From positions 1 to 13,138 of the forward strand of contig JBGCEP010000074.1 of assembly GCA_045106415.1 (NCBI GenBank): a stretch of DNA of 13,138 bases, given 5' to 3'. Shown here one piece after another: positions 1 through 13,138 of the stretch; within the stretch, counting starts at the first letter, position 1, and each line of letters opens with the position of its first letter. The DNA is from Oligoflexales bacterium. Its GTDB lineage: Bacteria; Bdellovibrionota_B; Oligoflexia; Oligoflexales; Bog-1112. Under the pieces are notes generated by a model. That model worked only from the letters and a program-made list of their open reading frames with translations. It was not told where the DNA came from and did not search any database. The position numbers and the translations under genes are program-made.

Positions 1-526
1 TATGCTCAGGCCAAAAACATCCTTGAAAACCTCAGCTACCCGACCCTCCGGGATAAACTGTTGGTGATTTAAATACACGCACATAGCACGGATTCTTGGT
101 CCGTATTGTATTGGCGCTGGAACATGTTCTGGAAACGAAGCAGTTGTAGTTACCCCACAGCTGCAGGTTTTGTGTTCTGAGCGATGTTCGGTGACTTCAA
201 TCTGAGGTTTAGGAATATCGAAAACTTGCCGTTTTTCGATATGAAAAGGGTTGACCGCTGAAAGCGTCTCTACCGCAACTTTTACAGTCTGAAACAGAAT
301 GAGCTTGAACTTTGTCAGGCGCTTTGCTCATTTCAAGTCTCTTACCTGGGTGCCCCTTTTGCCCCCCAGAGTTTCTTTTGCCCTTTGGTCGTAAACTCTT
401 GGTTCGCGGCTTTTTCGATAACCCATCACTCGATGGTGGTTTGCTACTTGTTGTACTGTCAAGATTTAACCTGCGCTCCAACTCAACAATGCGGGCCGTC
501 AAAGCCTTAACTTGCTCTTGTAACAC
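1..526 (-). pseudogene. IS66-family transposase, N-terminal part, frameshifted near 265-271
   Basis: Frame 1: coiled coil, NLDSTTSSKPPSSD, GGQKGHPG, CKSCG. The +1 frame continues LSAVNPFHIEKRQVFDIPKPQIEVTEHRSEHKTCSCG...PIQYGPRIRAMCVYLNHQQFIP to base 1. These are typical IS66 N-terminal and zinc-finger motifs. Start uncertain (frame open from about 574). Confidence 0.9.
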
Positions 527-620
527 TTGGATTATGTAATCTTTTTCGTCCGCAAGGACGACTCTGCCACAAAATCAAAAATTTTTCTCTATAAGATTAG
601 TTGGCTACCTGGGTAGTCAC
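1..620 (-). mobile_element. IS66-family element (single-ORF, ISBst12-like group), left (5') part; continues beyond the window start
   Basis: Terminus GTGACTACCCAGGTAG read on the minus strand from 620 (IS66-type GT(A/G)ACT..CAG end), followed by a transposase N-terminus; 14/16 match to the terminus at 10843. Confidence 0.85.
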
Positions 621-9877: not shown

Positions 9878-10501
9878 GTGTCAAAAACATTTTTAATTGC
9901 TTTAGCGGGTGGTTCTGGCTCTGGAAAAACGACCCTCGCCTCTTCTCTTCACGATTATTCATCTGATATCAACATGTTAAGCATGGATCACTATTACAAC
10001 GACTTATCACACTGGACGGCAGAGCAAAAAGAAAATCATAATTTTGACCACCCAGCTTCTATTGATTTTCCATTATTTATCTCAGATTTAAACAACCTTA
10101 AAAATAATAAGACCATTCAAAGACCGTCTTATAATTTCACAAACCATCACCGAGAACAGTCTGTTGAGATGAGACCATCAAAAGTTCTGATTGTTGATGG
10201 TTTATTTTCACTTTATCACCCTGAAACCTTGGGGCTTTATGATCTCAAAATTTACATCGACACTGATGACGACCTCCGTTTAAACCGCCGTATCCGAAGA
10301 GACATCAAAGAGCGCTCTCGATCTTTAGAAAGTATTCTTGATCAATATGAAAAGTCTGTCCATCCTATGTATCACTCTTATGTCAAACCCACTCGTATTC
10401 ATGCAGATTTTCAGATGTCTCTAAACACTCGCAACGAAAAAGCATTTCAAAGTCTAACCTCTATGATTCAGAGTCACTTGCAAAAGGAGAATCTGAAATG
10501 A
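9878..10501 (+). CDS. udk: Uridine kinase
   Basis: IALAGGSGSGKTT, DHYY, NFDHPASID, RLNRRIRRDIKERSR, VHPMYHSYVKPT; GTG start after AAGGAG. Confidence 0.93.
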   Translation: MSKTFLIALAGGSGSGKTTLASSLHDYSSDINMLSMDHYYNDLSHWTAEQKENHNFDHPASIDFPLFISDLNNLKNNKTIQRPSYNFTNHHREQSVEMRPSKVLIVDGLFSLYHPETLGLYDLKIYIDTDDDLRLNRRIRRDIKERSRSLESILDQYEKSVHPMYHSYVKPTRIHADFQMSLNTRNEKAFQSLTSMIQSHLQKENLK

Positions 10502-10627
10502 ACTATCAAAACCAGCAAAGCACCCTGACCTTACGAGAAGGTTTGGATGAATTTCATAGCTTACTTGAAAATCCTATGAACGGTGATTTATCTCCAAAAG
10601 TTGAAGAACTTTTTCATTGCTATGATA
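10498..10627 (+). pseudogene. 5' fragment of a gene translationally coupled to udk, truncated by an IS630 end
   Basis: ATGA overlap with the udk stop and AAAGGAG upstream; MNYQNQQSTLTLREGLDEFHSLLENPMNGDLSPKVEELFHCYD, then reads into IS sequence and stops at 10665. Confidence 0.6.
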
Positions 10628-10764
10628 TAGCATTGATCACGTTTATTTACTCAACATCTTCATAGCCGCACAAACAGCATCATAAATAGAGTCACATCCA
10701 TCTCTGAGAATTTTTCGTATTTTTGTTTTAACTTGATATAGCATTGGCTGGTTTTATTTACTCA
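10623..10764 (+). repeat. 31-bp imperfect direct repeat pair TGATATAGCATTG-N6-TTTATTTACTCA
   Basis: Copies at 10623-10653 (core ATCACG) and 10734-10764 (core GCTGGT), 111 bp apart. Confidence 0.9.
10626..10738 (-). mobile_element. IS630-family right-end remnant
   Basis: TA + TAGCATTGATCACGTTTATTTACTCA terminus; minus-strand 10735-10643 encodes QVKTKIRKILRDGCDSIYDAVCAAMKMLSK*, resembling the IS630 C-terminus after the NPIE motif, with the stop inside the inverted repeat. Confidence 0.65.
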
Positions 10765-10842
10765 CCCAGACTGAGTCTATTCCACTTATAAACTTGAATT
10801 CGAGAGATGTGATTTTATCTTATAAATTTAGTATGTTGTTCC
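10737..10842 (+). mobile_element. Second IS630-family terminus (probably a left end) inserted at a TA within the first
   Basis: TA + TAGCATTGGCTGGTTTTATTTACTCA, identical to the first terminus apart from a 6-nt core; followed by AT-rich sequence with no recognisable coding frame. Confidence 0.55.
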
Positions 10843-10954
10843 GTAACTACCCAGCTAGGGCTACGTCGGTGGTTCAGGCAAGCCTGGAGTTTGGCCCCAA
10901 AAAATTCCTTCGAGAGCTTCGATCACATTGTTTCCCTGTTTCCTACAGGTTGAA
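10843..10954 (-). mobile_element. IS66-family (ISBst12-like) right-end remnant
   Basis: Terminus GTAACTACCCAGCTAG at 10843; minus-strand 10953-10861 encodes STCRKQGNNVIEALEGIFWGQTPGLPEPPT* (IS66 C-terminal STxRKQG motif), cut by ISAs1. Confidence 0.85.
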
Positions 10955-12194
10955 CAGGGCTGTCTCATCTAAATTGAGGCTTTATTCCTGCTTTCTCTAG
11001 AATATCAGTAAGATACTTATGATCATAAGTTGCCTTTCGCTTCATCAAAGGGAGGCTAAAGTCGGTTTTGCTGAGCCTTAATATGTTCATGGCTAGCTTC
11101 CTGACAACAGCAAAGTTTCTAGGCGCATGGTCTTTGCGTACTCTAGAAGCATCTTCTTTAAAGGTTACATCCAGAGTCCAGTGTAAACGATTTTCAATGC
11201 CCCAATGGCCTCTAGCGAATTTAGCGAAGTGATGAACATCATGATAAATGAGTAAGTAATAGCGTGTTTCTTTTGTTTTTTGACCATCTTTTTCAGTCTG
11301 AGTGTTGTATTTACCAATAGCTTTGAGCCCCTTCCATTCCTGTACTTCATCCACGAGTAAATTTGCATTGACCGGTATAACCTCAAAAGTACGTTCAGTT
11401 ATTCTTCCATGCGTTTTTTCGACTTCGGTATGTGAATACACGTCTTCCACGTAATATTTCGTATCGAAAATGAAACCCACTTTCTCATTGAGATGTTTGT
11501 GATTACCTTTTAGAGCAAGGGTATAATCAGATTTTTCTTCGATAATCTTGGCAGCAGTGTTCTTCTGAGTGTTAAGAGCATCAACTGAAATTGTTGCACC
11601 ATTCACATCTAAAACATCCAACATCTCTGGCACAACTGCTATTTCATTGGATTTCTTATCCACAGGAATCTGACCTAAACAAATTCCGCTTTCGACGGCA
11701 CAGGCATTGAGAACATGCAACGATTTTTGACCTGATGCTTTGTCAAAAGACTTTCGAAGTGTCTTGCCATTCAACGCAATCAGTTTTGCATCTGCTTCCG
11801 GCATCATTTGTTTGGAGAATAGGCTAAAAAACAATTCAAATGCACGAGGTTTGAAGAGAGAAAAAACGCGGCTTATGGTTTGGTGAGAAGGAATACCATT
11901 AGTGAAATCAAAGTATTTCCGGAAAAATTCCAAATGATCTTTTCCATACACTTCGATACTGCGCCAACTATCAGTTCCGGTCAAAGCGCCTATTAGAACC
12001 AAGAACAAGATTTCCTATAATGGATATTTCTTAGTGCGATCCACTCGAGGGTCTTCAATACCCTCAAATGCTTCTTCAAGATCTTCTCTTGACCAAATCG
12101 ATGCCACGTTAGCTCTTAAAACAGGTTGAGCTAACATTCTATAATTATAAAGCAATTAACCGATTCTGTTTTTTATTTAGATGAAACAGCCCTG
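10955..12194 (-). mobile_element. ISAs1-family insertion sequence, 1240 bp
   Basis: 20-bp terminal inverted repeats CAGGGCTGTCTCATCTAAAT (10955-10974) and ATTTAGATGAAACAGCCCTG (12175-12194), 19/20 match; no target-site duplication. Confidence 0.95.
10965..12137 (-). pseudogene. ISAs1-family transposase with an in-frame TAG at codon 41 and a D-to-N change in the DGK motif
   Basis: ATG at 12137: MLAQPVL...FEGIEDPRVDRTKKYPL*EILFLV (TAG at 12017-12015); GIPSHQT, IALNGKTLR, KSNEI, ALKGN, HGRITER, RGHWGIENRLHWTLDVTFKED. Confidence 0.92.
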
Positions 12195-12319
12195 CATGTT
12201 CTGCAAGAAATGCCATTCCGGCCTGTTGGATCTGGCGTCGATGACCTTCTTCCACTCTCTGACTATAAAGCTACATCAAACTGATCGGGTCTGATAGGTA
12301 CCTTTGCTTCTGCGCTTAC
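12195..12319 (+). mobile_element. Classical IS66 (TnpC) right-end remnant
   Basis: 12195-12284 encodes HVLQEMPFRPVGSGVDDLLPLSDYKATSN* (TnpC C-terminal VL...D.LLP motif); ends in GCGCTTAC at 12319, the reverse complement of the GTAAGCG IS66 terminus. Confidence 0.75.
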
Positions 12320-12569
12320 GATACGACGTCGTCTTAGGTGATATGACTGGAAGCGCTGGAGTTTATAAATGCAGGAAAACGCAGCTATTAAAGCTCGGGT
12401 GTTTGCCTGATCAAGCTCAGACATCCGCTTGGAGTGTTCGTAACCAGAGAGGTTGATTGAACTGGGTTCGCTTCAGAAGATTCTCAAAATATACCCAATT
12501 GCACATTACGGTCTTAAGTACGACCACAAGAAATGGCGGACCTTAGCCATTGAGCAAACTAAAATTTGA
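12320..12569 (+). pseudogene. Decayed group II intron reverse transcriptase/maturase domain X fragments
   Basis: IRRRLR*YDWKRWS / YKCRKTQLLKLGCLPDQAQTSAWS then VRNQRG*LNWVR / QKILKIYPIAHYGLKYDHKKWRTLAIEQTKI*; two internal stops and two frameshifts; final TGA sits immediately before domain V. Confidence 0.7.
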
Positions 12570-12570
12570 A

Positions 12571-12643
12571 GAGCTTTGTGCGGAAAATCCGCATGCAGGG
12601 TTCTGTGAGGAGAGGGGTGAGTGACTCACCCCTTCAACTCGAC
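12571..12643 (+). ncRNA. Group II intron domains V and VI (3' end, IIB-like)
   Basis: DV: GAGCTTTG-TGCGG-AAAAT-CCGCA-TG-CAGGGTTC with AGC triad; DVI: GGGGTGAG-TGA-CTCACCCC hairpin with bulged A, ending in ACTCGAC. Confidence 0.9.
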
Positions 12644-12657
12644 ATCTCGATTCACTG

Positions 12658-13138
12658 TTATAAATCAGCACAAGCAATTCTTTTCCCGCCATTCTTTTCG
12701 TGAATAACTACGGACTTCACCATTGTGGGATTGCCTGTTTTGCTACTGTCTTGACGTTGATAAAACCCTGAGCTATCAAAGTCAATAGCTGCCAATTCAC
12801 TACCGTCTGGAAATTTATAGTGTCCTCCTCCCATTCCGTTCCCACATGACTGAATATGTAAATGTCCTGTATAGCTACCTTCTGGGAAATCTTTGTAGTT
12901 GATGCCAGCACCAGTATAAGAGTTGTCGAAAACAACTTCTACGTCTCCGTTGACAGCCTCATATCCAGCACTAAGAGATTTAATTTGTCCCTTTTTTACA
13001 GTTCTTTGAATTTGTTGGTTTGCTTGAGCTTCTGCCTCTGCTTGAGCTTCTGCCTCTGCTTGAGCTTCTGCCTCTGCTTGAGCTTCTGCCTCTGCTTGAG
13101 CTTCTGCCTCTGCTTGAGCTTCTGCCTCTGCTTGAGCT
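12658..13138 (-). CDS. 3' part of a repeat-containing protein with a C-terminal Cu,Zn-SOD-fold (Cu-only type) domain; 5' end lies outside the window
   Basis: Frame open from 13137 to TAA at 12660-12658: (EAEAQA)n-NQQIQRT...GSYTGHLHIQSCGNGMGGGHYKFPDGSELAAIDFD...KSVVIHEKNGGKRIACADL*. Missing from the ORF track because its start is outside the window. Confidence 0.85.
   Translation of the reverse strand, partial: AQAEAEAQAEAEAQAEAEAQAEAEAQAEAEAQAEAEAQANQQIQRTVKKGQIKSLSAGYEAVNGDVEVVFDNSYTGAGINYKDFPEGSYTGHLHIQSCGNGMGGGHYKFPDGSELAAIDFDSSGFYQRQDSSKTGNPTMVKSVVIHEKNGGKRIACADL
13021..13138. repeat. Perfect 18-bp coding tandem repeat TGCTTGAGCTTCTGCCTC, at least 6.5 copies
   Basis: Units start at 13021, 13039, 13057, 13075, 13093, 13111 and 13129 (partial); encodes EAEAQA on the minus strand. 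Confidence 0.98.

What the first reader, a model, noticed from the sequence alone, without database searches (positions are those of the whole stretch)
10498..12643. Gap-free stack of mobile-element termini with strikingly similar lengths (about 104-130 bp)
Seen, abutting without spacer DNA: host gene stub 130 bp, IS630 right end 111 bp, second IS630 end 104 bp, IS66 right end 112 bp, full ISAs1 1240 bp, classical IS66 right end 125 bp, IIC-like intron scrap about 116 bp, IIB intron 3' end about 208 bp. Each IS remnant keeps its outer terminus and is cut on the side facing the ISAs1, like the layers of an onion. Known: nested insertion followed by adjacent deletion or recombination produces such layers. 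Unexplained: why the layers are so uniform in length. Possible causes are insertion preference about 110 bp inside other elements' ends, selection to keep short ends as transposase decoys or antisense templates (a transposon-trap locus; speculative), or an assembly artefact related to read or k-mer length.
Basis: partly seen in the sequence, partly recalled or inferred. Interest (0 to 1): 0.7.

Follow-up and report, generated by a model that had tools for sequence, protein, structure and literature searches.

The report
Stack of broken jumping-gene ends
Downstream of a uridine kinase gene, an uncultured bacterium carries an ordinary pile-up of jumping genes inserted into one another and later cut down, and the similar size of the leftovers is probably due mostly to what a short-read assembler can stitch through, plus chance.

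Summary
The stack exists in the contig. Four IS end remnants sit around one full-length ISAs1 copy. They are an IS630-family right end (111 bp), the left end of the same family (104 bp), an IS66-family right end (112 bp) and a classical IS66 right end (125 bp). Each keeps its exact outer terminus and breaks at the intact terminus of the next element. The "IIC intron scrap" is unsupported: only a group II intron domain V-VI match (12569-12643) was found, and 12320-12568 is unassigned. The ISAs1 transposase gene has an in-frame TAG.

So the uniformity rests on four numbers. Elsewhere in this genome, 33 comparable remnants span 37-1150 bp, and 2 of 33 fall in 104-130 bp. No other IS630-like copy breaks near 110 bp.

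The assembly has 19 pairs of exact 141-bp contig-end overlaps, a k=141 signature. The IS630-family pieces match other copies exactly over 106 and 96 bp, so longer layers would have ended the contig. With that ceiling, four lengths within 21 bp occur 3-8% of the time.

Independent contigs bridge the first junction and all right-hand junctions. The three inner left junctions were not seen bridged.

Verdict: ordinary nested-IS decay. Low interest.

The parts
9878..10501 (+). udk (uridine kinase), the upstream host gene
   Evidence: Pfam PRK/uridine kinase family, E 9.5e-39
10498..10627 (+). Stub of an unidentified host ORF: 43 host codons, start overlapping the udk stop. It ends at the TA target (10626-27) of the first IS630-like insertion. 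The ORF runs on into IS sequence to a stop at 10665.
   Evidence: No homologue beside udk in 11 family relatives or elsewhere in the genome.
10628..10738 (+). Piece A: right end (transposase 3' side) of an IS630-family element, 111 bp. The outer terminus is at 10628. It is broken at the TA at 10737-38.
   Evidence: 87-96% identity to most of the 15 other hits, two diverged copies at 76 and 85%. Full 992-bp reference at C1:30198-31189. DDE_3 and NCBIfam IS630 transposase. Terminus alignment.
10739..10842 (+). Piece B: left end (5' UTR side) of the same IS630-like family, inverted, 104 bp. The outer terminus is at 10739, after the TA. It is broken at 10842.
   Evidence: 14 other hits. Matches reference positions 885-992 in reverse. 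10737-10842, which is the piece plus the TA, is 100% identical to the C37 copy.
10843..10954 (+). Piece C: right end of an IS66-family element, 112 bp, with the transposase C-terminus on the minus strand. The outer terminus (GTAAC) is at 10843. It is broken at 10954.
   Evidence: 96.7% identity to C27:153130-153249. The C27 ORF matches Pfam DDE_Tnp_IS66 and NCBIfam IS66. Three copies diverge upstream of GTAAC.
10955..12194 (-). ISAs1-family element, full length at 1240 bp, with 20-bp terminal inverted repeats and no flanking target duplication. The transposase frame is 12137-10965, with an in-frame TAG at 12015-12017. A 347-aa ORF restarts at 12008.
   Evidence: Inverted repeats. NCBIfam ISAs1 transposase E 4.4e-100. 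Pfam DDE_Tnp_1 and DDE_Tnp_1_assoc. TAG. Single copy in the genome.
12195..12319 (+). Piece D: right end of a classical IS66 element (tnpA/tnpB/tnpC type), 125 bp. It is broken at 12195, and its outer terminus (...GCGCTTAC) is at 12319.
   Evidence: 92.8% identity to C20:2176-2300. C20 carries TnpB_IS66 and IS66 transposase. Three copies diverge after TTAC.
12320..12568 (+). Unassigned non-coding DNA. It may be the upstream part of the same group II intron 3' fragment.
   Evidence: No other copy in the genome. No Rfam, Pfam or plasmid match. Contiguous in Logan contigs of X1 and X2.
12569..12643 (+). Group II intron domains V-VI (the intron 3' end). This is the only such match in the genome.
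   Evidence: Rfam RF00029, 39.7 bits against a gathering score of 40, E 5.3e-05 over the whole window.
12658..13137 (-). Downstream host ORF of unknown family. Its 5' part is an 18-bp tandem repeat in which the contig ends.
   Evidence: No convincing Pfam, NCBIfam or PDB match.

Best explanation
This is an insertion-sequence graveyard made by ordinary nested transposition and one later rearrangement.

Inferred order of events:
1. An IS630-like element landed at a TA in a small ORF behind udk.
2. A second copy of the same family landed at a TA 111 bp inside the first.
3. An IS66-family element landed 104 bp inside the second.
4. An ISAs1 element landed 112 bp inside the IS66-family element.
5. 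Separately, a classical IS66 had landed in or beside a group II intron remnant downstream of another host gene.
6. One ISAs1-associated event then joined the right end of ISAs1 to a point 125 bp from the right end of that IS66. The event was either an adjacent deletion or recombination between two ISAs1 copies. It removed the inner parts of all the left-hand elements at once.

The similar sizes have no function. The high-copy layers had to be shorter than the assembler's largest k-mer (141) for the contig to run through them. Pieces under about 40 bp would not be recognised. The rest is a modest coincidence among four numbers.
For: Shown:
- Each junction is an exact element terminus against a broken older element.
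- The IS630-in-IS630 junction lies at a TA, and 2 of 13 other copies carry a TA at that position.
- ISAs1 has perfect-length ends but no target duplication. Its two flanks come from different IS66-family elements.
- Family assignments come from Pfam and NCBIfam.
- Assembly signature: 25 of 114 contig-terminal repeat blocks are exactly 141 bp. There are 19 pairs of exact 141-bp end-to-end overlaps. 14 of 37 IS630-like HSPs end at a contig end.
- The longest exact matches between the stack and the rest of the genome are 106 bp (piece B plus its TA) and 96 bp (in piece A). Both are bounded by the junctions.
- Census: 33 clean terminus-bearing remnants elsewhere span 37-1150 bp, with 2 of 33 in 104-130 bp.
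- P(four draws within 21 bp) is 0.083 using the 15 remnants under 141 bp, 0.030 for uniform 37-140, and 0.004 with no ceiling.
- Independent Logan contigs bridge J1 and all junctions from 11465 to 12800 in X1, and 12272-12466 in X2.

Inferred: the order of events and the single ISAs1-linked deletion or recombination.
Against: - The ceiling is soft. IS630-like remnants of 148, 172, 215 and 298 bp are assembled inside contigs where they carry private differences. Without a ceiling, the clustering has P about 0.004.
- P that all four fall in 104-130 bp is 1.5e-5 to 4.5e-3, depending on the null.
- The lengths sit just below the limit and are not spread beneath it.
- The three inner left junctions (10737/38, 10842/43, 10954/55) were not seen bridged in the rows shown for X1-X3.
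- The only X1 contig covering 10954-11160 has 4 differences and a different left flank.
- Two metagenome scans with junction 24-mers found nothing, so no second assembly confirms the left half.
Confidence: 0.62

Rival explanations
1. The contig is partly a mis-join. The left half (udk, stub, three IS ends) and the right half (ISAs1 right part, IS66 end, intron remnant, downstream gene) are not adjacent in any one genome. They were joined through ISAs1 or through strain mixture in a low-coverage metagenome assembly. Each junction may exist somewhere, but the stack as a whole would not.
For: - In X1, the best holder (0.84 of sampled words), the only contig over 10954-11160 carries 4 differences and a different 233-letter left flank. 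Its depth (7.4) is like the single-copy flanks (6.6-8.0).
- That flank is absent from the binned genome.
- No row shown bridges the three inner left junctions.
- ISAs1 lacks a target duplication, which a chimera through ISAs1 would also produce.
Against: - A de Bruijn unitig needs every k-mer observed. The layers are 104-125 bp, so k=119/141 words from single reads can span two junctions at once.
- No contig of the genome ends in a 141-bp overlap with the inside of the stack.
- The X1 contig also diverges from the window at 11160, so it may be a different ISAs1 relative.
- Logan contigs drop low-depth links between high-depth repeats, so a missing bridge is not informative.
Confidence: 0.18
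2. There is a real biological preference or constraint. Transposases of several families would insert preferentially about 105-125 bp inside the ends of resident elements, for example next to a bound or bent end complex. The uniform layers would then record a target-site rule.
For: - Four of four remnants lie in 104-125 bp, although only 2 of 33 remnants elsewhere lie in 104-130.
- Three successive nested hits all fall on the same side of their hosts.
- Remnants of 113 bp (W family, C78) and 122 bp (X family, C85) also sit in stacks.
Against: - The inserting elements belong to three unrelated families with different chemistry and targets.
- The break points fall in different features: inside a transposase 3' coding region twice, in a 5' UTR once, and near a transposase C-terminus once.
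- Other IS630-like copies are broken at 46, 56, 148, 172, 215 and 298 bp, and none near 110.
Confidence: 0.1
3. The locus is a selected 'transposon trap'. It would keep short IS ends behind udk as transposase decoys or as templates for antisense RNA made by read-through.
For: The IS ends are tightly packed directly downstream of an expressed-looking operon, and all left-hand pieces keep their transposase-binding termini.
Against: - Relative to a + strand read-through transcript, piece A, piece C and ISAs1 are antisense, while pieces B and D are sense.
- Single ends cannot be mobilised, but they are also what plain decay leaves behind.
- There is no conservation to test. The organism is alone in its genus among the genomes held, and udk in family relatives is at most 47% identical.
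- No RNA data were found; the 4 runs listed are DNA and none is on record as RNA.
Confidence: 0.03

Closest known systems
Nested IS insertions and IS-decay regions ('IS graveyards') in IS-rich bacterial genomes
   Same: Elements are inserted into one another and then truncated, leaving solo ends that keep the outer inverted repeat. Junctions are terminus-to-broken-element. Insertions accumulate in DNA that is already dead (general knowledge, recalled; the anatomy here is).
   Different: Nothing essential. The only unusual point is that four layers fall within 21 bp of each other, which is weakly significant at best.
IS-mediated adjacent deletion, or homologous recombination between two IS copies
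   Same: A complete IS has intact ends and no target duplication, and its two flanks have different origins. Everything on one side of several nested elements was removed at once.
   Different: The event itself is inferred. The reciprocal product, or a second ISAs1 copy, is not in the binned genome.
IS630/Tc1-mariner-derived MITEs
   Same: The same genome carries a TA-flanked element of about 113 bp with IS630-like inverted ends, in at least 9 copies. Its size is close to the layers.
   Different: Pieces A and B are not a MITE. Both have their outer terminus on the left, so they are two single ends in tandem orientation. They are not a left-plus-right pair.
Eukaryotic piRNA clusters (transposon traps)
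   Same: A locus that collects fragments of many transposon families.
   Different: The orientation here is mixed. There is no evidence of transcription or processing, no conservation, and no known bacterial counterpart. This is a resemblance by analogy only (recalled).

Membership tests
IS630 family (pieces A and B) | DDE_3-type transposase of the IS630 family in full-length copies | tested here: met
   The C1 reference copy ORF matches Pfam DDE_3 (E 2e-34) and NCBIfam IS630 (111.1 bits, cut-off 100).
IS630 family (pieces A and B) | Terminal inverted repeats flanked by a duplicated TA | tested here: met
   TA followed by the conserved TAGCATTGG-type terminus at 16 right-end and 14 left-end copies. 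One left-end copy has CA in place of TA. The full C1 copy has TA on both sides.
IS66 family (pieces C and D) | IS66-type transposase, and for the classical form also TnpB, in the longer reference copies | tested here: met
   The C27 ORF matches DDE_Tnp_IS66 (E 2.2e-10). C20 has TnpB_IS66 (E 1.3e-31) and IS66 transposase domains, with the transposase split in two ORFs.
IS66 family (pieces C and D) | Termini beginning GTAA, and an 8-bp target duplication | tested here: inconclusive
   Both termini read GTAA(C/G) outward. That this is typical of IS66 is recalled. The duplication cannot be tested on single ends.
ISAs1 family | ISAs1-type DDE transposase and terminal inverted repeats | tested here: met
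   NCBIfam ISAs1 transposase E 4.4e-100, covering model positions 2-314 of 314. 20-bp inverted repeats, 95% complementary.
ISAs1 family | An intact, potentially active copy | tested here: not met
   There is an in-frame TAG at codon 41, inside the DDE_Tnp_1_assoc domain. No flanking target duplication.
Group II intron (right-hand block) | Domain V-VI structure at the 3' end | tested here: inconclusive
   RF00029 scores 39.7 bits, just under the gathering score of 40. E is 5.3e-05 over the window and 1.5e-06 over the 361 bases.
Group II intron (right-hand block) | Domains I-IV or a reverse-transcriptase/maturase remnant in 12320-12568, and a IIB versus IIC class assignment | tested here: not met
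   No D1-D4 Rfam family at E up to 10. No Pfam match for the two open stretches at E up to 10. In 94 other genomes of the order, only the domain V region matched, in 5 of them. The class was not determined.
MITE (considered for A+B) | Left and right ends facing outward on one short element | tested here: not met
   Both pieces have the outer terminus on the left.

The most novel reading that the evidence does not exclude
Resident IS ends in this bacterium are preferred landing pads. Unrelated transposases would insert at a set distance of about 105-125 bp inside an end, perhaps beside a protein-bound or bent end complex. Loci like this one would then grow as ordered stacks of single ends that could soak up transposase.
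Probability: 0.06. Interest if true: 0.6.

Novelty: already known. Interest (0 to 1): 0.14.

Why it matters
It matters mainly as a caution. In short-read metagenome assemblies, a contig can only run through stacked high-copy repeats if each layer is shorter than the largest k-mer. Uniformly short IS layers in such contigs are therefore expected from the method and should not be read as biology.

The locus also documents active or recently active IS630-, IS66- and ISAs1-family elements, and a MITE of about 113 bp, in an uncultured Oligoflexales lineage. If a distance rule for nested insertion did exist, it would be a new target-selection principle. The present data do not call for one.

Tried and rejected
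- Independent assemblies. Scans of metagenome contigs with a 24-mer across 10842/43 and a 24-mer across 12194/95 each gave 0 hits. The organism is probably not in that collection, so this says nothing either way.
- Logan contigs of X1-X3. The rows shown (21 of 51 laid pieces) did not bridge 10737/38, 10842/43 or 10954/55. Low-depth links between 100-400x repeats are easily dropped, so this is no evidence of absence.
- The ten loose-end strings were searched in the genome. The A, B and C interior continuations were found in other copies, as expected. The alternative ISAs1 flank and the other flanks were not found in the bin.
- Ancestral locus. Family relatives have udk at 39-47% identity, and none has a homologue of the stub or of the downstream ORF next to udk. 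The empty site could not be reconstructed.
- Identity of 12320-12568. No match in the own genome, the order (only domain V), plasmids, Pfam on two open stretches or Rfam at E up to 10. The MFE fold has z = -2.86, which does not identify it.
- I suspected the downstream ORF 12658-13137 was a Cu/Zn superoxide dismutase. That was from memory, and Pfam, NCBIfam and PDB searches did not support it. I dropped the idea.
- A+B as a MITE: rejected on orientation.
- C and D as the two ends of one IS66 copy split by ISAs1: rejected. Both are right ends of different IS66-family elements, and their termini share only GTAA.
- Literature. A search for nested insertion, IS fragments and truncated insertion sequences listed nothing about uniform remnant lengths (listing and abstract starts only).
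- Earlier scan notes: two word searches found nothing comparable.
- (exact-match script) timed out and was redone.
Full report
**Setting.** The window is a whole 13,138-bp contig (C74) of a 2.95-Mb, 89-contig draft genome rated 93.8% complete. Earlier notes of this scan call it an uncultured Oligoflexales bacterium. I did not test that. The smallest contigs are about 2.6 kb, and the runs that hold the sequence are labelled plant metagenome, so it is a metagenome-assembled genome. Upstream of the finding lie ordinary host genes, including flagellin, a heptosyltransferase, upp, a GTP cyclohydrolase and udk.

**What is there.** BLASTN of 10401-13138 against the whole genome gave 34 HSPs including the self-hit.
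- 10621-10738 matches 15 other places, most at 87-96% (two diverged copies at 76 and 85%).
- 10732-10842 matches 14 other places.
- 10836-10954 matches C27 (96.7% over 120 bp) and 45 bp of C58.
- 12195-12319 matches C20 (92.8%) and C1 (74.4%).
- 10955-12194 and 12320-12643 match only themselves.

**Pieces A and B.** Extending the other copies showed that the first two pieces are the two ends of one element family. A complete 992-bp copy lies at C1:30198-31189. Its first 113 bp align with window 10625-10737. Its last 109 bp align, reversed, with 10734-10842. That copy encodes a DDE_3 / NCBIfam IS630 transposase.

Alignment of 16 and 14 end copies with their flanks places the terminus right after a TA. 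So A is the transposase-3' (right) end, running from 10628 to the TA at 10737-38. B is the left end, inverted, at 10739-10842. At the A/B junction the native A sequence reads TTGAT(G/A)CC, and 2 of 13 other copies have the TA there. This is what a genuine TA-targeted IS630 insertion looks like.

**Pieces C and D.** Piece C (10843-10954) starts at a GTAAC terminus where three copies diverge upstream. In C27 it continues into the C-terminal part of an IS66-family transposase on the minus strand.

Piece D (12195-12319) ends at ...GCGCTTAC, where three copies diverge. In C20 it is the right end of a classical IS66 with TnpB and a split transposase. C and D are right ends of two different IS66-family elements.

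**ISAs1.** Between C and D lies a 1240-bp ISAs1-family element with 20-bp inverted repeats. Its transposase matches the NCBIfam ISAs1 model at E 4.4e-100. The reading frame has an in-frame TAG at codon 41, with a 347-aa ORF restarting just after it. The element has no target duplication.

**Right-hand block.** To the right, only 12569-12643 is recognisable, as group II intron domain V-VI. It scores 39.7 bits against a gathering score of 40, and it is the only such match in the genome. I found no support for a separate "IIC-like scrap", nor for any junction near 12435. The stub at 10498-10626 is 43 codons of an ORF with no detectable relatives.

**Observation verdict.** The uniform series, however, consists of four IS remnants: 111, 104, 112 and 125 bp.

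**How it arose (inferred).** Every junction is an intact terminus of a younger element against a broken older one. On the left that gives the order host ORF, then A, B, C, ISAs1. All the complementary right-hand parts of A, B and C are missing together. ISAs1 has flanks of different origin and no duplication.

The most economical history is therefore three nested insertions followed by one ISAs1-linked event. That event could be an adjacent deletion, or recombination with a second ISAs1 copy that sat 125 bp inside the IS66 element. This mechanism is standard for insertion sequences (established knowledge, recalled).

**Are the lengths more uniform than chance?** I took four multi-copy families and the two IS66 types as references. 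I listed every HSP that starts at an element terminus and ends inside a contig. That gave 49 rows. I removed the 4 window rows and 10 rows that continue after an internal deletion. I also dropped a spurious 27-bp hit and one near-full-length copy. This left 33 remnants of 37-1150 bp.
- Only 2 of 33 (113 and 122 bp) lie in 104-130 bp.
- 15 of 33 are under 141 bp.
- IS630-like copies elsewhere break at 46, 56, 148, 172, 215 and 298 bp, so there is no hotspot near 110.

Taken at face value, though, four of four in 104-125 is unlikely. Resampling gives the following.

| Null model | P(range ≤ 21 bp) | P(all four in 104-130) |
|---|---|---|
| All 33 remnants | 0.004 | 1.5e-5 |
| The 15 remnants under 141 bp | 0.083 | 3.0e-4 |
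| Uniform 37-140 bp | 0.030 | 4.5e-3 |

**The assembly filter.**
- 25 of 114 contig-terminal repeat blocks are exactly 141 bp.
- There are 19 pairs of exact, end-to-end 141-bp overlaps. This is the mark of a de Bruijn assembly finished at k=141.
- That k=141 is a usual MEGAHIT setting is recalled. 73 papers in the library mention MEGAHIT with k-max 141 (listing only).
- 14 of 37 IS630-like HSPs stop at a contig end.
- The longest exact matches between the stack and the rest of the genome are 106 bp (10737-10842, piece B plus its TA, identical to the C37 copy) and 96 bp (10642-10737, in piece A). Both end at the junctions.

Had these layers been longer than about 140 bp, the contig would have ended inside them, as C37, C86, C4, C70, C84 and C22 do. 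A contig that shows several stacked layers of consensus-identical IS ends can therefore only show short ones.

The ceiling is soft. Remnants of 148-298 bp are assembled where they carry private differences. It also explains the upper bound only. The residual coincidence is roughly a 0.4-8% event before allowing for the fact that the pattern was picked out after seeing it.

**Junction support.** Logan contigs of three runs from one study were laid on 10300-12800.
- In X1 (0.84 of the sampled words, depth about 7), a 5810-bp contig bridges the stub/A junction, reaching 10670.
- Also in X1, a 1586-bp contig covers 11465-12800 with one difference. It bridges ISAs1/D, D/12320, the supposed 12435 boundary and the intron end.
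- A 195-bp contig of X2 covers 12272-12466.
- None of the rows shown bridges A/B, B/C or C/ISAs1.
- The one X1 contig covering 10954-11160 has 4 differences, a different 233-letter left flank that is absent from the bin, and diverges again at 11160.

That X1 contig may be another ISAs1 relative. It could also be a sign that the left and right halves are not adjacent in that sample. I therefore keep a mis-join as the main rival, at 0.18.

**Biological alternatives.** A distance rule for nested insertion would have to hold for three unrelated transposase families. It would also have to hold at break points in different features: coding 3' ends, a 5' UTR and a transposase C-terminus. No other locus supports it.

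A decoy or antisense "trap" is not supported either. Relative to udk read-through, A, C and ISAs1 are antisense while B and D are sense. No RNA run is on record among the 4 runs listed, and no related genome is close enough to test conservation.

**Verdict.** This is a real-looking but ordinary nested-IS decay locus in a short-read metagenome bin. The size uniformity is best explained by the k=141 assembly filter, a detection floor and chance. The left-hand junctions still need read-level confirmation. Interest is low.

Noticed in passing
Own genome, e.g. C51:52906-53023, C13:15872-15985, C80:6461-6578, C85:2467-2581 (9 copies listed): A discrete element of about 113 bp, flanked by TA, with terminal inverted repeats resembling those of the IS630-like family. 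It looks like an IS630-derived MITE and is present in at least 9 copies with the same boundaries.
   Followed up: partly
window 12015-12017 (minus strand): In-frame TAG at codon 41 of the ISAs1 transposase, inside the DDE_Tnp_1_assoc domain. A 347-aa ORF restarts at TTG 12008 and still covers the whole NCBIfam ISAs1 model. No difference from the window is listed there in the X1 Logan contig that covers it.
   Followed up: partly
window 13021-13138: The contig ends in a perfect 18-bp tandem repeat (6.6 copies). It encodes an (AQAEAE)n run in the minus-strand ORF 12658-13137, which has no recognisable family.
   Followed up: partly
Run X1, contig laid on window 10954-11160: An ISAs1 left end 98% identical to the window's copy but with a different 233-letter left flank, at single-copy-like depth. 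The flank is not in the binned genome.
   Followed up: partly
Own genome C40:13818-14067: An internally deleted IS630-like derivative. About 80 bp of the right end overlaps by about 12-14 bp with 183 bp of the left end, and it sits next to a 1.4-kb element.
   Followed up: no
Own genome C85:2061-2754 and C51:52906-53525: Other gap-free stacks of repeat pieces. C85 has layers of about 122, 115 and 171 bp; C51 has 118, 94, 172 and 233 bp. Stacking is common in this genome, and the layer sizes vary.
   Followed up: partly
window 488-620: A 133-bp stretch downstream of the flagellin gene is 97% identical to C42:6295-6427. Its nature was not examined.
   Followed up: no
Own genome C20:728-2300: The IS66 reference copy has its transposase split into two ORFs (728-1783 and 1846-2169). 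The usual C-terminal motif reads in a third frame, so this copy looks defective too.
   Followed up: no
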